From the IMG/VR virus record IMGVR_UViG_3300032235_000715, positions 4,234-68,233 of that record: a stretch of 64,000 nt of DNA. One strand, written 5' to 3'. The DNA comes from a virus. Positions 28 through 60,590 of this stretch are shown piece by piece. The notes under the pieces are model-generated. The model saw only the letters and a program-made list of their open reading frames with translations. It made no database searches and was not told the DNA's origin. The translations under genes were made by a program, and so were the position numbers. Position 1 is the first letter of the stretch. Each line of letters begins with the position of its first letter.

Positions 28-1947
28 ATGCCGTTAGTAAATTTTTCAAATCTGGATTTCGACCAGATTAAAACAAGTCTTAGAGATTATCTAAGATCAA
101 ACTCAAATTTCACTGATTATGATTTTGAGGGATCTAATCTCTCAACTATTCTTGATGTATTGGCATATAATACCTACATCACTTCATATAATGCAAATAT
201 GGTTGCAAATGAAGTGTTTATCGATAGTGCAACATTAAGAGAGAACGTAGTTGCACTTGCAAGAAACATTGGTTACGTTCCAAGATCAAGAAAAGCATCT
301 ACGTCAACAATAAGTTTTTTTGTTGATACAACTAGTATTATACCAGCACCTGCATCACTAACCTTAAAAAAAGGTCCCGTAGCAACAACAACAGGATCTT
401 TCGGAAATCAATCATTTATATTTTCAATATTGGATGATATTACTGTACCAGTAGTTGATAATGTTGCATCTTTCAATGATATTAAAATTTATGAGGGAGT
501 ACTACTGAGTACTAATTTTACATACAATTCAAATAATCCAAATCAAAGATTTATTTTACCAAACTCGGGTATAGATACTGACTTAATTTCTGTAATGGTA
601 AAGGAAACCTCTGAATTTGTCAAATATAGACTCCAAGACAGTGTTTTTGATGTAAATAAAGATTCTAGAGTTTTCTATATTCAAGAAATTGAAGATGAGA
701 GATATGAATTAATTTTTGGAGATGGAGTTCTCTTCGGTAAAAAATTAGAAAATAACAATAATATAGAAATAAAGTATATTACATCCAATGGAGACAGTGG
801 AAACGGAATAAGTCAGTTTAGTTTCTCTGGTAGAATTTCATATACAAGAAATTCTACAGAATATATTGTTACTTCTGGTATATCACTCCTAACAACTGGT
901 ATCACTTCTCAGGGAGGAGAAAATATCGAGTCTGTTGAGTCTATTAAGAAATATGCCCCAAGAATTTATGCTTCTCAAAACAGAGCATTATCGGCAAATG
1001 ATTATGAGTCACTAGTTCCAAATAAAATATACCCAGAAACGGAGTCCATATCAGTTTTTGGTGGAGAAGAATTAGTTCCTCCACAGTATGGAAAAGTTTT
1101 TATAAGTATCAAACCAAGAAATGGAGACTTTTTGCCAAGTTTGATCAAAGAAAATATAAAAAGAGATCTTAAAAAATATGCCGTTGCTGGAATTGTGCCA
1201 GAGATTTTAGATCTCAAGTATTTGTATGTTGAAGCAAATTCAAAAGTTTATTATAATACAAATCTCGTACCAAGTTCTGCATATGTTTCTACAGTAATTC
1301 AAACAAATGCAAACAAATATGCAGAATCTACTGAATTAAATAAATATGGTGCGAGATTTAAGTATAGTAAGTTTTTAAAAATTATTGATGATAGTCATGA
1401 ATCAGTGACTTCAAATATAACAACCATCCAAATTAGAAGGGACTTAAGAGTTACATTAAATGCCTTTGCCGAATATCAGATTGGATTTGGCAATGAAATT
1501 CATATTAAAAGTATGGATGGATATAATATAAAATCCAGTGGTTTTAGAATTTCGGACTTTCAGGAAACCATATATCTTTCTGATATACCAGACACTAATA
1601 GAACAACTGGTTCTATTTTCTTTTTTACAGTTCCAAGCATAAATTCTACGACTTCAACTATTGTTAAAAGGAATGTTGGTAGAATTGATTATAAGAAAGG
1701 TATTATTACGCTCAATCCAATTCAGATTTTATCCGGAAAAGTAAAAGATGGGCAGTCTATAATTGAAATTTCAGCAGTGCCACAGTCCAATGATGTGATT
1801 GGATTACAGGATCTTTATCTTCAACTAGATATTAATAAGAGTGTGTTTGAAATGATCCCTGATGAAATTTCTTCAGGACTTGATCCTTCGGCATCTAACT
1901 ATATTGTAACATCAAGCTACAGCAACGGGAACCTAGTAAGATCATAA
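28..1947 (+). CDS. gp6: Baseplate wedge subunit gp6
   Basis: N-terminal LDFDQIKTSLRDYL...FTDYDFEGSNLSTILDVLAYNT...EVFIDSATLRENVV and later QNRALSANDY / PPQYGKVFISIKP motifs of T4 gp6. Confidence 0.95.
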   Translation: MPLVNFSNLDFDQIKTSLRDYLRSNSNFTDYDFEGSNLSTILDVLAYNTYITSYNANMVANEVFIDSATLRENVVALARNIGYVPRSRKASTSTISFFVDTTSIIPAPASLTLKKGPVATTTGSFGNQSFIFSILDDITVPVVDNVASFNDIKIYEGVLLSTNFTYNSNNPNQRFILPNSGIDTDLISVMVKETSEFVKYRLQDSVFDVNKDSRVFYIQEIEDERYELIFGDGVLFGKKLENNNNIEIKYITSNGDSGNGISQFSFSGRISYTRNSTEYIVTSGISLLTTGITSQGGENIESVESIKKYAPRIYASQNRALSANDYESLVPNKIYPETESISVFGGEELVPPQYGKVFISIKPRNGDFLPSLIKENIKRDLKKYAVAGIVPEILDLKYLYVEANSKVYYNTNLVPSSAYVSTVIQTNANKYAESTELNKYGARFKYSKFLKIIDDSHESVTSNITTIQIRRDLRVTLNAFAEYQIGFGNEIHIKSMDGYNIKSSGFRISDFQETIYLSDIPDTNRTTGSIFFFTVPSINSTTSTIVKRNVGRIDYKKGIITLNPIQILSGKVKDGQSIIEISAVPQSNDVIGLQDLYLQLDINKSVFEMIPDEISSGLDPSASNYIVTSSYSNGNLVRS

Positions 1948-4900: not shown

Positions 4901-7900
4901 GGAGTAGGAACTGATAATCAAGACTTTTATTATAAAACAAATCAGCAAATCCAGTTTAATTCGACTGGATCTGGAACGCACACGTTTAATTATCCACAAA
5001 TAGTAGTTGAAGTTGTTGGAAATATTGGTGTATCGACTTCTTTTAAAGCAGTAGTTCAACCAATTTTTAGGGGAGAAATTACATCAATACATTTGAACGA
5101 CAATGGTGTTGGATACGGATCTTCGGAAATTATTAATTTTAATAGAATTCCTAATGCAACTTTGAATAGTGGAGCAGATGCTCAACTTGTTCCGATAATT
5201 AATGATGGAAAAATTGTTGAAGTTTTAATTAACAATCCCGGAAGAAATTATAATTCGCCCCCAAATTTAAATATTTTAACAAATAATGAAGGAGTAGGTG
5301 CTATTCTAACTCCAATCATTGAAAATGGTCAAATAAAATCAATTAAGATTGTTGAAAGTGGTGGTGGATATAACCCAAATAGTACTTTTATTACAGTATC
5401 TGCTGCAGGAACTAAAGCAGAACTCAATCCCGTATTAAAATCTTGGACAGTAAATCTTTTTGCAAAATATTTTAATAAATTTGCAGATGATGATGGATTT
5501 ATTTTTTATAATTCAAATTCCAAATATGGGTTACAATACGCCCATTTATATACACCAAGAAAATTAAGAGAGAATGTATATGCCAAAGAAATTGGAGGAA
5601 AAACTCTTTATGGAAAATATGATCTCATAAAGTCTAATAATAATGAAGTCTCTTCTACAAACCATTCTCCAATAATCGGATGGTCTTACGATGGAAATCC
5701 AATATATGGACCATATGGACTTTTAAATAATGGATCTATTTCCAGAATGAAGTCTGGATATATTTTGAATTTGGCAACAGACAGACCTCCATTCCCTTCT
5801 GGGTTCTTTGTTGAAGACTATGAATATCAAAATGTCGATGATGAATCTGTCCTAGATGAATATAATGGAAGATTCTGCGTAACTCCAGATTTTCCTAATG
5901 GTACTTATGCATACTTTACAACAATCGACGGAACATCTTCAAGTTCTTTTGGTGGATATAGATTGCCAGTTTTTCCTTATATTATAGGAAACAAATTCAA
6001 GTCCACACCAAATCAATTCAATTTTGATAGAAAATCAAATCAAGATGATATTGATTTAAATAAAACAGATTGGTCTAGAAATACAACTCCATATAATCTA
6101 CTTAAAAAATACACTTCTTACTCTTACTTACAACTGCCAAATGATCTAGATCAAACAATCGATGTTAAATATGCTTCCCCCGGAGTTATTGAAAATATCG
6201 GTATTGTAACGGGAGGAATAAATTATAAAGTAAATGATAAAATTATTTTTGATGAAGAGGAAACTAGTGGTTTTGGATTTGCAGCAAAAGTTTCTAGAAT
6301 TGGTGGGAAAACTGTCAATTCAGTTAGTGTTGCAAGCACCACAGTTTATAATTTAGAAATTTATCCTTTGGAGGGGAGTAAAAATTCTTTTATTGCACAA
6401 TCAGATTTGCCACATAATTTTATTAATGTAGATATTGTTTCAATTTCTGGATTAAATACAACTTCTTCATTAATAGGCGGGTCATATACCATAGGTGTAT
6501 CTACAAATACTCTATCTGTTTCAAGTCCTTCTGGAATTGGATCTGTTGGAGTAACTGGAATTGTTACTTTTATTTCTGTTTCTGGAAATCTTTCACATCT
6601 TTCAGTTAGAGAAAATGATGTATATAAGATTGGAAATGAAAAGATTAAAGTATTGAACGTAGATAAAAATTCTTCTAGGATTAGAGTATTAAGATCTATT
6701 GATGGGACAGTTGGATCTGCGCATAGTTATACTAATGTTTTATATGAAACTTCAAGAAGATTTTCTATAAATGTTGGAAATACTACATCTTATGGATACT
6801 CAGTAAACAAAGAATTTTATTTTAATCCAAAAGAGTCTCTTGGTGTTGGAACTGTTTTTGGTGTTGGAATTGGAACGACACTTTCTTTTTCAAGTCCAGG
6901 TATTGGAGCGTCGCAAATCTTCATTCCAACAAAGACAATTTATATTCCAAATCATAATTTACAAACAGGAGATGTTTTAACATACTCCACAAATATAGGA
7001 ACTTCAATTTCAGTATCAAAGGATGGGATAACCTCATCACCTCTTGCAGATCAATCCGTTGTTTACGTTGCTAAAATTTCCAATGACTTAATTGGAATAT
7101 CAACTGTTAAGGTTGGTCTCGGAACAACTGGAACTTTTGTAGGAATTGCATCAACAACTTCATCTTTTAGTACATTATATTTTACTGGAATTGGAACAGG
7201 AACTTATCATAGTTTTAAGACAAACTATCCAAAATTAACTGCACAAGCATCCAAAAACATTGTAACTGTTTCAACTGCACAAACACACGGGATTACAAAC
7301 AATGATTATGTTTTTGTAAATGTAAATCCGGGAATTACTACATCAATTATAGTTAAGTATGATGATTATAATCGAAAAGTTTTAATCAATCCCAGGTCTT
7401 TTGTTTCTGGCGATATTAACATCTCTTCAAATTCTATAACAGTCTTAAATCATAATTTTGAAAATGGGCAGAAAGTTGTTTATACTTCATCATCTCCCTC
7501 AGGTGGATTAGTTAATAATAAAATTTATTATGTTGTTGTTTTCGATAAAAATACAATTAAGTTATCCCCATCATATTATAGTGCGACTAATTTAATTCCA
7601 GAGATAATTAATATAACTTCAGCATCAAGTGGTACATTATCTCCTGTAAATCCACCCATTAAACTTTATAAAGAATCCACTGCAATATTTGATCTTTCAG
7701 ACTCTTCTTTATCATATCTCAATGGATCTGTTAGATATTCTGCATTTGAATTGAATTTTTACATAGATTCAAATTATACCCAAATATTCGATAAGTCATT
7801 CTCTAGCAAAACTTTTGAAGTTATAAAGACTGGTATAGTTGGAGTAGATGCAAATGCGAAGGTTTCGTTAACAGTCAATGACAATATTCCACAAAAGTTA

Positions 7901-10900
7901 TACTATAAGTTAGATCCAGTATACAATAGTACTCTTCCACTGACAAAGAAAGAAGTAAATGTAGATACTTCTGTTATTGCAAATAATGAGATGCAGGTTG
8001 TTTACAGTGGATATAATGGAGAGCATAGAGTAACTTCTACTTCTTCCACTTCATTTACATACAATCTCGATAAAACACCCGAATCTCTTTCTTACAGTTC
8101 TTCTTCAAAGTTAAATTATGAAACAACATCTTTAAGTGCTTTGGGATCTGTTTCTAAAATTAATATAACCTCTAATGGACAACAGTATACAACACTTCCA
8201 AAGTTTTCGGAAATAAATTCTACATATGGAACTGGTGCTATTTTAGAAGCATCTAGTAAATCAATAGGAAACATCAAGAAAACAAAATTAAATAATATTG
8301 GATTTGATTTTTCGTGCGATTTTACTGTAAGACCAAATTTAATTTTCCCACAAATTTTAAAAATTGAACCTCTTAATTCGATTGATTATATTGGCATCAA
8401 TTCAAGAGGAAGAGGGTACCTCACAGCACCAAAACTTGTTGTATTAGATGGAAAATCCAGAGAAGTTCTTCCCGAATTAGATCTCAAATATTCCTTAACC
8501 GACAATTATGTTACAATTTTAAATAATACGTATAGACTTAATGATATAACTCCAATTATTGTCCCAACACAAAATTCAAATGGAGTTGGGATTAAATCAG
8601 TTTCATATAATTCTACTTCTAAAGATGTAACTATTGAATTATCAGTTGGATTTAGTACGTCAAGTTCTTTCCCATTTGCTATTAACGATAATGTATTAAT
8701 AGAAAATATCAGTGTAGGAATTGCATCGGCGGCAAAGGGGTTTAATTCGGAAAACTACAATTATCAATTATTTACAGTTACCTCAATTGATCCAAATATA
8801 GGTGGATATGGGTCTATAACTTATAACTTGGGCAATTTTCTGGAGTCAGGAGAAACTCCAGGAACTTATGACAACGTTAATTCCTCTGGAAGAATTATAC
8901 CAGAAAAATATTTTCCAAAATTTAATGTTGTATTAAAACCAAATGATTTCTTTGAAAATGAAAGAGTTAGATATCCCAATGAATCAATTTCATTGGGATA
9001 TGTCGAAAATTGGAATAAAGAAACTAAGTATCTTAAAGTTTCTTCAAGAGAAATTTTAAAAGAAGGGAATGTTATTGAAGGCGTCTCATCAAAGACTCAA
9101 GGAATAATTTTTTCTACAATTAAATCTACTGGTTTTATTGATGTTGGATCGTATTCAAAATCGGAAAATGGATGGATAACTGAAACTGGAGTCTTAAATA
9201 ATGAATTACAAAAAATTCAAGACAATTTCTATTACCAACTATTCTCATATTCACTTAAATCAAAAGTTCCTTATGATACGTGGGAAAATGCTGTTGGATC
9301 TTTAAATCACACTGCTGGATTTAAAAAGTTCAGTGATTATCAATTAGAATCTTTTGGTTATTCTGGAATTAGCACAGACGCTGCTTCTGTTTTAGATACA
9401 AACGCAGATATTATTGGATTTGCAAGTTTAAACTGCGTGTATGACTTTGATCTTGCAAGAGAAAATGCATTAGTTTTAGGATCAAAAACTTACTCGGATG
9501 AAATAACTTTTTCGAGTAGAATACTAACAGATTATTTTGAATCTGTAGGAAATAGAGTATTATCGATTGATAATATCAGCGATCAATTTAATAGTAATCC
9601 AAGATCAACAAGATTTTCTATTGTTCATCGTTTCTTCTTATCTGATGCTCGTGCTCAAAAGTACATTACTTATGTAAAAGACCAAAGATACACGTCAGAA
9701 AGACAACTGATGCTCTTTACATTACTTCACGACAATAACATGGGGTATTTAAATCAGTATGGAAGAGTTGAATCAGTTTATGATCTTGGATCTTTTGATT
9801 TTTCTATTAATGGAAATGAAGGTCTGATATTATTCTATCCAATAAAATATAGAGTAAATGATTATCAAGTTACAACATTATCATATAATCTAAAGGATAG
9901 TTTAGTTGGAGTAGGAAGCACTACAATAGGAGATATTGTAAGTGTAAATACAAATACTATTTTTGTTTCCAGCGGACCAACAACAATTATTAGTATTGGA
10001 TCCACTTATACTTCTTCTAAAATACTAGTGGAAGTATCTGCAAATAATGATCAATATCAGTTTAATGAGTTGAATTTAATTCATGATGGAACAAATATTG
10101 AACTTCTTGATTATGGTCAATTAACAAATCATTCAACAGATGCTTATTCAAGTTCTGGACTTGGCACATACTACCCATATTTTTCTGGATCAGACTTAAA
10201 AATTGATTTTATTCCCAATGTAGGAATAGCAGCGTCTATAAGTACAATTCAAGTTGCAATTTCAAATACTTCAATAACTGGAATAGGTACTTTTGATATT
10301 AAGTATGCAAGATTTGAGGCAAGATCCACTTCTATTGCATCCACCACGTCTCCAACTGCAAGTATAGTCGCAGAATATCCAGAGAAGTATGATGGTGGAT
10401 ACTATGTTGTTCAGGTTTCTGATATTACAAACAATAGACATCAACTTTCTGAAGTTATTGTTCTCGATGATGAAAATGAAGTGTATATCACGGAATTTGG
10501 AAACATTGAAACACATTCTGGTCTCGGAACCATAGGAGCAGTAAAAACTATAAATTCAACTAGATTGACATTTACTCCTCTTGCAAATATTGATACTCAA
10601 GTAAAAGTATACTTCAATTCTCTTGCAAACTTTGATGAAATCAATACTTCAACTCAATACAATAATAACACTGCAACTTCCGATTACAATGTTTATTATG
10701 GAACAGAAAGAGATGTTAAACGTTCTTTTGAACTCAAACATCAAGGAAATCCAATTTTCCAACGATATTTTGATGCAAGTGATTCGTCTACAGTGAGTAT
10801 TGGATCTAGTACCATTAGAATTCAAAATCACTTCTTTGTTACTGGAGAAAAAGTTTCATATTCTTCTGGTACACCAACTGCAATATCGTCACCTATAGGC

Positions 10901-58932: not shown

Positions 58933-59312
58933 GTATTGAACTTAAAGATTGGTTGAACTCAATAAATTTTTCAAAAGAAAATTTAATTGAGGATTCTAGT
59001 AGTATTAAAGACTATTCTCCGTACGTTATTAATCGTTGTTTGTCGGGTGAAATTGATTGTGTTCTCTTCGCCAATGAAATGAACCTAAATCACCACCTGG
59101 ACAAAGATATGCAATATTCTTTTTTTCTAAATACTATAAGAAAAAGGAAGAGATATTCTCCCTGGCTCCGTAAAGATAAAATTAAAGACTTAGAGTGTGT
59201 GAAACGTTATTATGGATATAGTAACGAAAAGGCATCTCAAGCATTGAAAATTTTGTCAAAAGAGCAAATCGACTTTATTAAACAAAGACTTGAAATTGGC
59301 GGAACAAAATGA
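58929..59312 (+). CDS. gp62: Clamp loader small subunit gp62
   Basis: LKDWLNSIN, YSPYVINRCLS, RKRKRYSPW, VKRYYGYSNEKA. Confidence 0.94.
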   Translation: MSIELKDWLNSINFSKENLIEDSSSIKDYSPYVINRCLSGEIDCVLFANEMNLNHHLDKDMQYSFFLNTIRKRKRYSPWLRKDKIKDLECVKRYYGYSNEKASQALKILSKEQIDFIKQRLEIGGTK

Positions 59313-59749
59313 CAATTCAAACAATTGAACCACAGGTAAATTGGTCTCAAGACCAAATGGTTGAAGTTATCCTAAACGAACCAGATGATTTTCTAAAAGT
59401 AAGGGAAACTTTAACTCGTATTGGGGTTGCATCCAGGAAAGAGAAAAAACTCTATCAATCTTGCCACATCTTACACAAGCAAGGTAGATATTACATTGTT
59501 CATTTTAAGGAGTTGTTTGCTCTTGATGGTAAGCACGCCAACTTGACCGTGAATGATGTTCAACGACGCAATCGCATTGTTCGCCTTCTTGCAGACTGGG
59601 GACTTATTACGGTTCTAAATCAAGATAAAGTATCTGATATTGCTCCTTTGAATCAAATCAAAGTTCTTGCTTATAAGGATAAGGGAGACTGGATTCTTGA
59701 ACAAAAGTATAACATTGGTAAAAAAGGAAAAGCAGTAGAAACCGAATAA
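59309..59749 (+). CDS. regA: Translational repressor RegA
   Basis: PDDFLKVRETLTRIGVASRK..LYQSCHILHKQGRYYIVHFKELFALDG. Confidence 0.98.
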   Translation: MTIQTIEPQVNWSQDQMVEVILNEPDDFLKVRETLTRIGVASRKEKKLYQSCHILHKQGRYYIVHFKELFALDGKHANLTVNDVQRRNRIVRLLADWGLITVLNQDKVSDIAPLNQIKVLAYKDKGDWILEQKYNIGKKGKAVETE

Positions 59750-59753
59750 ATAA

Positions 59754-59833
59754 GTATGGGACCTTTCGTGCGGTCTCTACAAAAGTCGGAACACCCTAAA
59801 GAGAAGTTCGGTTTTTACTGTTCTTCTCTTTTT
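59754..59833 (+). ncRNA. Candidate small RNA (or structured regA 3' UTR) with split complementarity to 23S rRNA
   Basis: Late core AATAAATA at 59745-59752; hairpin GGGACC-tttcgtgc-GGTCTC; tail GTCGGAACACCC; terminator AAAGAGAAG...CTTCTCTTTTT; no ORF. Confidence 0.6.
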
Positions 59834-59929
59834 CGTTTCTTGTATTTTATAAGTATATGAAAAACATCTTAAAAACAATGTAGTAGAAACCACACTTTAA
59901 AAATAATACAAACTATTATAAATTATTAA

Positions 59930-59986
59930 TGATCGCCTTATTGGGATCACACAAACAAACTCGCTTTTAAAGGAGATACTATAATG
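59930..59986 (+). promoter_or_regulatory. Structured hsp20 leader, ROSE-like RNA thermometer
   Basis: Hairpin TGATC(G)CC-ttatt-GGGATCA, then CTCGCTT-tta-AAGGAG in which UCGCU pairs the Shine-Dalgarno with a bulged G; TATAAAT at 59917-59923. Confidence 0.6.
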
Positions 59987-60418
59987 ACTAATCTGATGAA
60001 GTATCAGGCTGCGGATCTTCCTGCTTTGCTGGAAAGAATTAATCGCAATACGATTGGTATGGATGAATACTTTGATCGTATTTTTAAAATTCACGAAACA
60101 ACTTCCAATTATCCGCCATATAATCTTGTTCAAGTAAGCAACGTAGAATCTCGTCTTGAACTTGCACTTGCTGGATTTAAAAAGAAAGAAGTTTATGTCT
60201 ACACGCAAGATGGTAAACTTTTTGTTGAGGGTCAAAAAGAAGATAAAGAAACGGAGTCCAACTATATCCACAAGGGTTTGGCACAACGAAGTTTTAAGAG
60301 AGCGTGGACACTCTCTGATGATACGGAAGTTAGATCAGTTGATTTTGAAGATGGTCTTTTGACTGTGACTCTTGGTAGAATTGTTCCAGATCATCATAAG
60401 AGAAAAGATTACCTCTAA
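59984..60418 (+). CDS. hsp20: Small heat-shock protein Hsp20
   Basis: NYPPYNL, ELALAGF, YIHKGLAQRSF.R.W.L, FEDGLL alpha-crystallin motifs. Confidence 0.97.
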   Translation: MTNLMKYQAADLPALLERINRNTIGMDEYFDRIFKIHETTSNYPPYNLVQVSNVESRLELALAGFKKKEVYVYTQDGKLFVEGQKEDKETESNYIHKGLAQRSFKRAWTLSDDTEVRSVDFEDGLLTVTLGRIVPDHHKRKDYL

Positions 60419-60431
60419 ATAAAAATAAAAA

Positions 60432-60590
60432 ATGAAAACCTTCCGTGAATTTAATGCTATTTTAAGAGAAATGAAAGGTGACTTTGGTGCAAATGCAAAA
60501 CCACCTAAAGCAAAGTGTGGTTGGGATGGAACAACAACTTACGCTATGCTTCCTGGAAAGAAGGTTTGTAAGTTTAAAAGAAAGAGATAA
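60432..60590 (+). CDS. Small basic protein with a capsid-targeting-sequence-like leader (52 aa); not in the ORF track
   Basis: Hand-translated MKTFREFNAILREMKGDFGANAKPPKAKCGWDGTTTYAMLPGKKVCKFKRKR; TAAATA at 60416-60421. Confidence 0.65.
   Translation: MKTFREFNAILREMKGDFGANAKPPKAKCGWDGTTTYAMLPGKKVCKFKRKR

What the first reader, a model, noticed from the sequence alone, without database searches (positions are those of the whole stretch)
59745..59833. Candidate phage small RNA antisense to host 23S rRNA helix 71 region, directly behind regA
Seen in sequence: the regA stop overlaps a late-promoter core (AATAAATA, 59745-59752). It is followed by a hairpin (GTA.GGGACC-TTTCGTGC-GGTCTC.TAC), an A4 linker, the tail GTCGGAACACCC and an intrinsic terminator (59798-59833), giving a self-contained ORF-less unit of about 75 nt. 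From recalled rRNA sequence: cyanobacterial/plastid 23S reads GGGUAAGUUCCGACCCGCACGAAAGG at E. coli positions about 1948-1973, whose reverse complement is CCTTTCGTGCGG-GTCGGAAC-TT-ACCC. The phage has CCTTTCGTGCGG (59762-59773), an 11-nt insert, GTCGGAAC (59785-59792) and ACCC (59793-59796). That covers 24 of 26 target bases in order, and it fits the cyanobacterial variant (CCCGCACGAAAGG) rather than E. coli (CCUGCACGAAUGG). The hairpin loop displays the anti-1964-1971 bases, the tail could invade helix 71 (intersubunit bridge B3), and the two main arms meet at the C1961/C1962 junction (m5C1962 in E. coli). Inference: a bipartite guide-like RNA that binds free or assembling 50S subunits to block subunit joining or biogenesis, to direct a modification or cleavage, or to shield this region from host rRNA-cutting toxins (MazF-mt6 cuts nearby helix/loop 70). 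I know of no described phage RNA with this property.
Basis: partly seen in the sequence, partly recalled or inferred. Interest (0 to 1): 0.93.

Follow-up and report, generated by a model that had tools for sequence, protein, structure and literature searches.

The report
Cyanophage small RNA antisense to 23S
A small non-coding RNA gene kept by many T4-like cyanophages carries two exposed stretches that are the mirror image of adjoining bases of the host's large ribosomal RNA, so the phage may act on ribosomes directly with an RNA, which has not yet been tested.

Summary
Window 59745-59839 is a self-contained, ORF-less unit: late-promoter-like TAAATA, a 5' hairpin, a single-stranded tail and a terminator hairpin with a U run.

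It is conserved. A loop-anchored IMG/VR scan gave 97 real elements among 116 complete hits. blastn hit 251 phage records, once per record. It lies behind regA, gp32, psbA or an outer-membrane-like gene. In P-HM2 the next genes converge on it, so it cannot be a leader there.

The recalled rRNA sequence is correct. Real Prochlorococcus 23S reads GGGTAAGTTCCGACCCGCACGAAAGG, equal to E. coli 1948-1973. The window pairs with 24 of these 26 bases. This site is the best predicted target in a complete 1.9-Mb host genome. The two-block match beats 400 of 400 shuffles.

Against the reading:
- UCUCUAC is invariant but not complementary.
- Compensatory stem changes suggest that only the loop and the tail meet a target.
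- The 23S variant also occurs in Firmicutes.
- No transcript or binding is shown.

A chromosomal homologue exists in 13 of 301 host-family genomes. This scan had already noted the element, and other phage RNAs antisense to 23S H69-H71, on other DNA. My literature searches found no description.

The parts
59745..59752 (+). Late-promoter-like core AATAAATA, overlapping the regA stop codon (59747-59749)
   Evidence: Sequence. In the loop-anchored set of 91 unique homologues, TAAATA is present in 87 and TATATA in 4. The spacing to the stem is 5 nt in 82 of 91. That this motif is the T4-type late promoter comes from the literature (PMC3037559 methods passage), not from a test here.
59758..59777 (+). 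5' hairpin: stem GGGACC/GGTCTC, 8-nt loop TTTCGTGC (59764-59771). The predicted 5' end of the RNA lies at or near 59758.
   Evidence: RNAfold. The core TCGTG is invariant in a scan anchored outside the loop. Compensatory stem variants are GAGTCT..AGACTC and GTGT..GCAC.
59762..59773 (+). Arm A, CCTTTCGTGCGG, complementary to 23S CCGCACGAAAGG (E. coli 1962-1973). It reaches 13 nt with the A at 59761 where the host 23S reads GGUG.
   Evidence: It occurs once in the window.
59778..59784 (+). Linker TACAAAA. TAC is nearly invariant; the rest varies in length and sequence between homologues. It is not complementary to 23S.
   Evidence: Alignment A2 and linker classes.
59785..59796 (+). Arms B and C, GTCGGAAC plus ACCC. 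They are complementary to 23S GUUCCGAC (E. coli 1954-1961, the 3' strand of helix 71 and part of its loop) and GGGU (1948-1951). A1952 and A1953 are left unpaired.
   Evidence: CGGAAC is near-invariant (five exceptions among 148 hits). The bases after it vary as partial versions of the perfect complement TTACCC.
59798..59839 (+). Intrinsic-terminator-like hairpin (59798-59831, with a UU/GU internal loop) and a U-rich run
   Evidence: RNAfold. The simple consensus scan did not call it. In homologues a run of five or more T follows in 89 of 91. A hairpin abuts that run in at least 72 of 91, with 24 different stem starts.
59309..59749 (+). regA (translational repressor), the upstream neighbour. 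It is not part of the RNA.
   Evidence: Pfam Translat_reg, E 3.5e-43.
59917..60418 (+). hsp20 with its own late-promoter-like TATAAAT (59917-59923) and a 5' hairpin (59930-59949). It is a separate unit downstream.
   Evidence: Pfam HSP20, E 1.1e-14. The promoter-like motif and a covarying hairpin recur in homologues. Metatranscriptome contigs begin at 59962-59989.

Best explanation
Window 59758 to about 59835 (+) encodes a small RNA of about 67-80 nt. It would be made from a gp55-type late promoter and ended by its own terminator.

Shown here:
- It is a single-copy, ORF-less unit with strong sequence conservation across T4-like cyanophages.
- It moves between genomic contexts as a whole.

Inferred:
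- It acts in trans by base pairing.
- Its hairpin loop (UUUCGUGC) and its single-stranded tail (GUCGGAAC plus ACCC) pair with adjoining bases of host 23S rRNA: E. coli 1964-1971 and 1948-1961.
- That target is the 3' strand of helix 71 and the strand that follows it, at the subunit interface.

Most likely the RNA binds 23S that is not locked in a 70S ribosome, meaning nascent or assembling 50S or free 50S. There it would compete with formation of helix 71. The consequence for the phage is not known. Candidates are fewer new or joining large subunits, marking rRNA for breakdown, or covering the site. The cyanophage RNA appears to be one member of a wider, undescribed set of phage RNAs complementary to 23S helices 69-71.
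For: Stand-alone gene:
- The loop-anchored IMG/VR scan gave 120 loci and 116 complete hits, of which 97 are real elements and 91 are unique.
- Of the 91, 87 have TAAATA, 82 have 5-nt spacing, and 89 have a run of five or more T. Length is 57-79 nt.
- Terminator stems differ, with 24 different starts, while the core is constant.
- blastn found 251 phage records and 251 places, so one copy per record.
- Core identity is 88-94%, while the flanking genes are about 70% identical.
- Contexts differ. Among 141 elements the upstream gene is regA in 51, Phage_OMP in 42 and psbA in 12. The downstream gene is hsp20 in 64, glutaredoxin in 18 and transaldolase in 6.
- In P-HM2 the element follows gp32 and the next genes are on the other strand.
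- Compensatory stem changes occur.
- There is no Rfam match at E up to 10.

rRNA pairing:
- The real 23S matches as recalled.
- The 26-nt target is held by 125 of 201 host-family genomes, and 148 of the 150 listed places are exact.
- Among 4,900 seeded windows of a complete 1.9-Mb host genome, the 23S site is best at -41.4 kcal/mol, apart from the homologue's own antisense. The next best sites are -35.8 and -34.3.
- The two-block chain scores 21, against a maximum of 20 in 400 shuffles.
- No site in the 64-kb phage window is better than -32.3.
- For 72 of 85 variants this site is the best in the rrn operon.
- Variable flanks tend to keep pairing in different ways. Tails UUAC, AUACCC, AAACCC and ACCC are all partial complements of GGGUAA. 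Loop insertions read CA[UC]C-N-UUCGUGCGG, opposite GGUG.
- The host homologue has longer arms, CACCUUUCGUGCGG and GGUCGGAAC.

Recurrence:
- A 17-mer of 23S H69-70 gave 13 short islands among 20 IMG/VR loci.
- A strong terminator follows on the antisense strand in 5 of the 13, and on the sense strand in 0.
Against: - No transcript is shown. RNA contigs of four freshwater metatranscriptomes cover hsp20 but not 59780-59960.
- No binding is shown.
- UCUCUAC (59774-59780) is invariant yet not complementary to 23S.
- Compensatory changes keep the stem closed and, in those variants, cost a pair with C1963.
- The 12 contigs with the loop AUCGUUCGUGCG have a mismatch inside arm A.
- The strictly invariant bases are only a short loop core and a 6-mer tail. 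By my own arithmetic these would match adjoining sites somewhere in a 2-Mb transcriptome with probability about 0.2.
- The energy z-score is only -3.0, and one shuffle reached -40.9.
- For 13 of 85 variants another rrn site scores better.
- The chain statistic was chosen after seeing the data.
- In mature ribosomes this rRNA stretch is folded. This is my knowledge and was not tested.
- Syn9, S-PM2 and P-SSM2 lack the element, so it is dispensable.
- An origin as an inverted rRNA fragment with another present function would give the same pattern.
Confidence: 0.5

Rival explanations
1. It is a trans-acting small RNA whose real partners are host or phage mRNAs or a protein. The 23S complementarity would be a relic of descent from an inverted rRNA fragment, or chance.
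For: - UCUCUAC is invariant outside the complementary arms.
- The stem is kept by compensatory changes.
- A single 12- or 13-nt block is common by chance (159 of 400 shuffles). A second 12-mer match lies elsewhere in the host genome.
- The host homologue sits in a region rich in small RNAs, 0.8 kb from a Cyano-1/Yfr2-family RNA.
Against: - No host or phage site comes near the 23S site. The next best are -35.8 in the host and -32.3 in the window.
- The two-block adjacency beats 400 of 400 shuffles.
- Divergent tails and loop insertions still pair with the same 23S bases.
- Other phage RNAs aim at the same rRNA region.
- A relic without selection would have drifted, since the flanking genes are only about 70% identical.
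Confidence: 0.27
2. It is a cis-acting leader or attenuator, possibly a small pseudoknot or riboswitch-like sensor, that gates read-through into the downstream gene.
For: - In glutaredoxin-type contexts the terminator is followed at once by the ribosome-binding site and ATG, with no second promoter visible.
- The loop UUUCG can pair with the tail CGGAA (my reading of the sequence).
- In hsp20-type copies the tail can pair with the terminator interior GUUCGG. This was noted by earlier readers and is present in 33 of 91.
Against: - In P-HM2 no gene follows on the same strand.
- hsp20 has its own promoter-like motif and leader after the terminator.
- Downstream genes are unrelated: Hsp20, glutaredoxin, transaldolase, aldolase, deformylase.
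- Terminators of 24 different stem types follow one constant core, and 34 of 91 lack any TTCGG-like interior.
- There is no covariation for the pseudoknot. There is no Rfam riboswitch match.
Confidence: 0.1
3. It is a DNA-level or cassette element, such as a recombination junction like the promoter-stem-loop cassettes of T4-type phages, a replication or packaging signal, or simply a strong terminator with a hitch-hiking promoter.
For: It lies at borders between gene modules and moves between contexts. It is single-copy and highly conserved as DNA.
Against: - One copy per genome does not fit a dispersed recombination cassette.
- Strand-specific features (promoter motif, spacing, terminator with a U run) are conserved together.
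- Stem changes are compensatory at the RNA level and include G-U pairs.
- Such a role does not explain the rRNA match.
Confidence: 0.05

Closest known systems
Trans-encoded base-pairing small RNAs of bacteria and phages (own promoter, exposed seed, intrinsic terminator)
   Same: The unit runs from promoter to terminator, is about 70 nt and has no ORF. Conserved bases sit in a loop and a single-stranded stretch, and the terminator is variable.
   Different: The best and recurrent complement is rRNA, not an mRNA start region. The 2025 review of phage small RNAs does not contain the term rRNA; I read term-search passages only (PMC12197685).
Loop-presenting antisense RNAs (CopA/CopT of R1 and RNA I/RNA II of ColE1; names recalled and also used by earlier agents)
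   Same: A stable hairpin presents a 7-8-nt loop that can start pairing, and an adjoining single strand can extend the duplex. The loop holds UUCG, which fits the YUNR pattern (recalled motif).
   Different: Those RNAs are cis-encoded and fully complementary to their target. This RNA is trans-encoded and complementary in two or three short blocks.
Phage RNAs antisense to 23S helices 69-71, noted earlier in this scan and found in no paper searched here (for example e1-6155672, e1-6086671, e1-5684466)
   Same: They are small phage RNA genes in T4-like or large phages, some beside gp32, with conserved bases complementary to 23S domain IV. I confirmed 13 such islands among 20 loci. L499 shares the block GUCGGAAC.
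   Different: Most of those target 1925-1945 (H69-70) contiguously. This RNA targets 1948-1973 in split blocks. Sequence homology between the families was not tested.
snoRNA-type guide RNAs of archaea and eukaryotes (C/D and H/ACA)
   Same: They are small RNAs that pair with rRNA, and in H/ACA the guide is bipartite.
   Different: There are no C/D or H/ACA boxes and no pseudouridylation pocket. No target base is left unpaired between the arms (read).
CfrI antisense RNA of cyanophage S-PM2
   Same: It is a non-coding RNA of a T4-like cyanophage.
   Different: CfrI is about 225 nt and cis-antisense to the 3' end of psbA (review passages). S-PM2 has no match to the present element.

Membership tests
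Trans-encoded base-pairing sRNA | Own promoter | tested here: met
   TAAATA or TATATA lies 4-8 nt before the stem in 91 of 91 unique homologues of the loop-anchored set. Promoter activity itself was not tested.
Trans-encoded base-pairing sRNA | Intrinsic terminator directly after the conserved body | tested here: met
   RNAfold for the window. A run of five or more T follows in 89 of 91, and a hairpin abuts it in at least 72 of 91. The simple scan missed the window's own terminator.
Trans-encoded base-pairing sRNA | No conserved reading frame | tested here: met
   The start codon is not conserved. Linker lengths of 1-7 nt and loop insertions of 1-3 nt break any frame.
Trans-encoded base-pairing sRNA | A discrete transcript is made | tested here: inconclusive
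   Only assembled RNA contigs were on hand. One low-depth contig of a relative reaches 59778, and none covers 59780-59960.
Trans-encoded base-pairing sRNA | Pairing with a defined target changes that target | not testable with these tools
   Only prediction is available: the 23S site ranks first in the host genome.
Riboswitch or attenuator leader | Always lies in the 5' leader of a gene on the same strand, with a coherent set of regulated genes | tested here: not met
   In P-HM2 the next genes converge on it. Downstream genes are unrelated. hsp20 has its own promoter-like motif.
Riboswitch or attenuator leader | Conserved alternative pairing between the sensor and the terminator | tested here: inconclusive
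   A GUUCGG-like terminator interior occurs in 33 of 91, and 34 of 91 have none.
C/D or H/ACA guide RNA | Box motifs and a guide pocket that leaves the target base unpaired | tested here: not met
   No such boxes can be read in 59758-59839 (the box consensus is recalled). The arms abut on the target with no unpaired base between them.
Any Rfam family | Match to a curated covariance model | tested here: not met
   Only two chance-level hits at E 4.5 and 6.7, far below gathering scores.
Dispersed promoter-stem-loop cassettes of T4-type phages (recalled) | Many copies per genome | tested here: not met
   251 places in 251 records. One copy in the 68-kb record that holds the window.
Phage RNAs antisense to 23S H69-H71 (earlier notes of this scan) | Conserved exposed bases complementary to 23S domain IV, on the transcribed strand | tested here: met
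   The strand is given by the promoter motif and the terminator.
Phage RNAs antisense to 23S H69-H71 (earlier notes of this scan) | Common descent with the other members | not tested
   I only saw that L499 shares GUCGGAAC.

The most novel reading that the evidence does not exclude
T4-like phages of several host phyla, among them the abundant marine and freshwater cyanophages, encode late small RNAs that pair directly with host 23S rRNA at the subunit interface (helices 69-71). They would use this to control how many large subunits are assembled, joined or destroyed during infection. That would be a virus-encoded, rRNA-targeting antisense RNA, a class for which no bacterial or phage example is in print as far as my searches reach.
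Probability: 0.45. Interest if true: 0.92.

Novelty: new variant of a known kind. Interest (0 to 1): 0.82.

Why it matters
Cyanomyoviruses are among the most abundant viruses in the sea, and they shape the turnover of Prochlorococcus and Synechococcus. A conserved phage RNA that meets the ribosome itself would be a new way for a virus to handle host translation or to reclaim the cell's largest nucleotide store.

The idea is directly testable. The element is present in cultured systems: P-HM2 on MED4, P-TIM68, Syn1, S-CAM4, S-CAM8 and S-RIM44. Strand-specific RNA-seq of P-HM2 infection already exists (PMC5082946, passages read). Syn9, S-PM2 and P-SSM2 lack the element and could serve as natural controls.

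Even if the rRNA reading fails, this is a widespread, uncatalogued cyanophage small RNA gene with a host-chromosome homologue.

Tried and rejected
- Rfam at E up to 10: nothing relevant.
- ARAGORN: no tRNA or tmRNA in the window.
- Small-ORF reading: rejected.
- Expression: 22 runs were listed, 17 of them on record as RNA, and none holds half or more of the sampled words. Four freshwater metatranscriptomes were laid. hsp20 is covered to depth about 78 and regA weakly. For the sRNA only one contig of a relative reaches it (59635-59778, 13 differences), and nothing lies over 59780-59960. These are assembled contigs, so this gives no verdict on transcription.
- Host-type covariation: not achievable. 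The target is invariant in the host family, and the hosts of variant-bearing contigs are unknown. L454 reads CAUUCGUGCAG, the E. coli-type complement. L255 and L273 read CAUUCGUGCGG, and one host genome (G107) has GAAUGG. I treat these as anecdotes.
- Scan for E. coli-type arms: 83 loci, nearly all chance matches in coding DNA. Only 7 were real elements (L410, L412, L413, L444, L455, L447, L454).
- Contiguous 20-mer of the target: 4 loci. L491 and L502 also came up in the earlier 17-mer scan and continue rRNA-like beyond the match, L502 on both sides and L491 downstream only. There is also one island (L506) and one GC-rich stretch (L507).
- Covariance model R1: built without structure, because MAFFT misplaced the 5' stem.
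- Duplex energy alone: a weak discriminator, z -3.0.
- Literature: no paper holds the motif strings. Searches gave no description. One search was badly framed and useless. For PMC10690425, PMC12197685, PMC3037559, PMC5931967 and PMC5082946 I read term-search passages only, not whole texts. Supplements are closed, and the intergenic read counts of PMC5082946 or the motif lists of PMC10690425 could hold this element.
Full report
**What is there**

The window is part of a 68-kb IMG/VR record of a T4-like cyanophage, GC 34.8%. regA occupies 59309-59749 (Pfam Translat_reg). hsp20 occupies 59984-60418 (Pfam HSP20).

- AATAAATA at 59745-52, overlapping the regA stop.
- Five bases of spacer.
- A hairpin, GGGACC / TTTCGTGC / GGTCTC, at 59758-77.
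- TAC plus AAAA.
- GTCGGAAC at 59785-92 and ACCC at 59793-96.
- A long hairpin at 59798-59831, followed by a U-rich run.

RNAfold gives -29.7 kcal/mol, z -4.58. The simple terminator scan missed the hairpin because of its internal loop. A 34-aa ORF starts inside the hairpin. Its start codon is not conserved, and homologues differ by indels that are not multiples of three, so it is not a gene.

**Conservation**

blastn of 111 nt hit 251 phage records, one place each. Of these, 243 are named Synechococcus phage, Cyanophage, Prochlorococcus phage or marine virus. The core is 88-94% identical, while the neighbouring genes are about 70% identical.

Of 116 complete hits, 97 are the element and 19 are unrelated. 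The 97 collapse to 91 unique sequences:
- 87 have TAAATA and 4 have TATATA.
- 82 have the motif exactly 5 nt before the stem.
- 89 have a run of five or more T after a hairpin.
- The implied RNA is 57-79 nt long, median 67.

Terminator stems come in at least 24 sequence types.

That scan fixed the loop sequence by construction. I therefore ran a second scan anchored on the promoter motif and the stem. It shows which loop bases are truly constant, namely TCGTG. The loop variants are CTTTCGTGCG (59), ATCGTTCGTGCG (12), TCTTTTCGTGCG (9), TTTCGTGCG (8), TCCTTTCGTGCG (8) and rarer ones. Three of the 124 hits were unrelated.

In the tail, CGGAAC is near-invariant. One TGGAAC and a few CGGAAA or CGGGAC occur. 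The linker before it is 1-7 nt long. The bases after it vary.

The stem is maintained by compensatory changes. GAGACC..GGTCTC becomes GAGTCT..AGACTC in five contigs and GTGT..GCAC in one, and G-U variants also occur.

**Context**

Among 141 elements the upstream gene is regA (51), a cyanophage outer-membrane-like protein (42), psbA (12) or gp32. The downstream gene is hsp20 (64), a glutaredoxin (18), transaldolase (6), class I aldolase, peptide deformylase or others.

hsp20 carries its own late-promoter-like motif and a covarying 5' hairpin after the terminator.

A covariance-model search of five model phages found the element in two:
- P-HM2 at 5897-5932, just after gp32. The next genes are on the opposite strand.
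- P-TIM68 at 173,614.

It was not found in Syn9, S-PM2 or P-SSM2.

A unit that moves as a whole, is single-copy, and in one phage has no gene to lead into is best read as a stand-alone small RNA gene. Earlier first-stage notes of this scan reached the same reading on at least seven other genomes.

**The rRNA match**

A real Prochlorococcus 23S (L158, Rfam LSU 2580 bits) reads GGGTAAGTTCCGACCCGCACGAAAGG. Aligned with E. coli rrlH, this is positions 1948-1973.

The window pairs as follows:
- 12 nt with 1962-1973. This becomes 13 nt where the host reads GGUG.
- 8 nt with 1954-1961.
- 4 nt with 1948-1951.
- A1952 and A1953 are left out.

That makes 24 of 26 bases. The 26-mer is held by 125 of 201 genomes of the host family. 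The rest are mostly incomplete assemblies. Of the 150 listed places, 148 are exact.

The variant is not peculiar to cyanobacteria. The 18-nt pattern also occurs in Bacillus, Clostridia, Streptococcus and other records.

**Is it more than chance?**

I fetched a complete 1,898,947-bp host-family genome and scanned both strands.
- Exact blocks: apart from the antisense of a host homologue (below), the longest exact complement is the 13-mer in 23S. A second 12-mer lies elsewhere.
- Duplex energy: of 4,900 windows with a seed of at least 7 nt, the 23S site is best at -41.4 kcal/mol. The next are -35.8 (in 16S) and -34.3.
- Two-block chain: I chained two exact blocks that abut on the target. The real score is 21. 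In 400 dinucleotide shuffles the maximum is 20 and the mean 15.6.

A single block of 13 is ordinary (159 of 400 shuffles). Against the rrn operon alone the energy z-score is only -3.0. I chose the chain statistic after seeing the data. In the 64-kb phage window nothing beats -32.3.

**Does variation respect the pairing?**

Partly.
- Tails after CGGAAC read ACCC, UUAC, UUACC, AUACCC, AAACCC, AACCC and UAC. All are partial forms of UUACCC, the perfect complement of GGGUAA.
- P-HM2 and many contigs have UCGGAACUUAC, which gives 11 contiguous pairs.
- Loop insertions read CA[UC]C-N-UUCGUGCGG, which pairs with GGUG beyond the arm.
- For 72 of 85 variants this site is the best in the rrn operon. The variants are related, so this count is not independent.

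Four things weigh against it:
- The common AUCGUUCG loop has an internal mismatch.
- The compensatory stem variants place A opposite C1963.
- UCUCUAC is invariant without any rRNA partner.
- Stem conservation implies that the closing CC/GG stay paired within the RNA.

I therefore favour contact through the loop (7-8 nt) and the tail (6-12 nt), not through a fully opened 12-nt arm.

**A host homologue**

In 13 of 301 genomes of the host family (1.7-1.9 Mb), a syntenic chromosomal locus holds a related sequence. It has longer arms (CACCUUUCGUGCGG and GGUCGGAAC), an extra 5' hairpin and its own terminator.
- It is not in Rfam.
- It lies 0.8 kb from a Cyano-1/Yfr2-family RNA.
- It sits between two TPR-protein genes, near a DUF1651 gene.
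- The covariance model found it in 3 of 151 genomes, with a fourth weak hit.

Given its narrow spread in hosts and wide spread in phages, transfer from phage to host seems the more economical direction. This is an inference.

**Recurrence elsewhere**

Notes of this scan report other phage RNAs antisense to 23S H69-H71. These are AI notes, so I made my own check.

A 17-mer of 23S H69-70 occurs in 20 IMG/VR loci:
- 2 continue as rRNA-like sequence.
- 5 look like chance or coding matches.
- 13 are short 23S-like islands in otherwise unrelated phage DNA.

A strong terminator follows on the antisense strand in 5 of the 13 and on the sense strand in none. One island (L503) looks like a sense copy. 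L499 joins an anti-1927-1945 block to an anti-1954-1965 block and shares GUCGGAAC with the present RNA. L506 holds a contiguous 23-nt island of 1952-1974.

This recurrence is the main reason I put the rRNA reading at about one half and not lower.

**Expression**

Parts of the stretch occur in freshwater metatranscriptomes. hsp20 is well covered, including one 273-nt contig with no differences. The sRNA is not covered. These are assembled contigs, so this says nothing about a 70-nt RNA.

**Literature**

No held paper contains the motif strings. Searches on cyanophage non-coding RNAs, phage small RNAs and sRNA-23S pairing found no description. I read term-search passages only, and supplements were closed.

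**Verdict**

It is a real, widespread, uncatalogued cyanophage small RNA gene (about 0.85). Its conserved exposed bases are complementary to 23S 1948-1973 beyond chance. Whether it acts by pairing with 23S is plausible (about 0.5) but untested. The physiological effect is open.

Noticed in passing
L287 about 1400-1540 (-), equal to G062:C1 about 1,378,820-1,378,960; also L286 and L288-L294: A chromosomal homologue of the phage RNA occurs in 13 of 301 host-family genomes. It has longer 23S-complementary arms and an extra 5' hairpin (AAGGAGG..CCUCCU). It is not in Rfam. It lies 0.8 kb from a Cyano-1/Yfr2-family RNA, between two TPR-protein genes.
   Followed up: partly
window 59917-59983: hsp20 has its own late-promoter-like TATAAAT and a 5' hairpin (59930-59949). 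In homologues the hairpin covaries: GGATGCC/GGGTCC, GGTTGCC/GGGACC, GAACGCC/GGGTTC, GATCGCC/GGGATC. I did not test that.
   Followed up: no
L488-L505 (IMG/VR loci): Thirteen phage contigs hold short islands identical to 23S H69-70 (UAAGGUAGCGAAAUUCCUUG and more). A strong terminator follows on the antisense strand in 5. L503 instead looks like a 45-nt sense copy followed by a terminator.
   Followed up: partly
L506 about 10,500-10,560: A contiguous 23-nt island equal to 23S 1952-1974 (cyanobacterial/Firmicutes type) sits inside a stem (AGACA..TGTCT) in an unrelated viral contig. The transcribed strand is unknown.
   Followed up: no
L454 3489-3511 (-): A close relative of the window's locus has the arm CAUUCGUGCAG, the exact complement of the E. 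coli-type 23S (U1963, U1971), and a re-paired stem GUGU/GCAC. Its host is unknown.
   Followed up: no
window 59962-60450: hsp20 of this phage or near relatives is well represented in freshwater metatranscriptome contigs (depth up to about 78; one 273-nt contig is identical). regA is weakly represented. The phage is probably a freshwater one.
   Followed up: partly
L399 1490-1560 (P-HM2 5886-5956) and L400 1490-1570 (P-TIM68): The element is present in two cultured Prochlorococcus phages. In P-TIM68 the tail reads AGGAAC instead of CGGAAC.
   Followed up: partly
G107:C10:27722-27747: One genome of the host family has 23S GAAUGG instead of GAAAGG in the target. Phage variants L255 and L273 have the matching loop CAUUCGUGCGG. 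No link between them is known.
   Followed up: no
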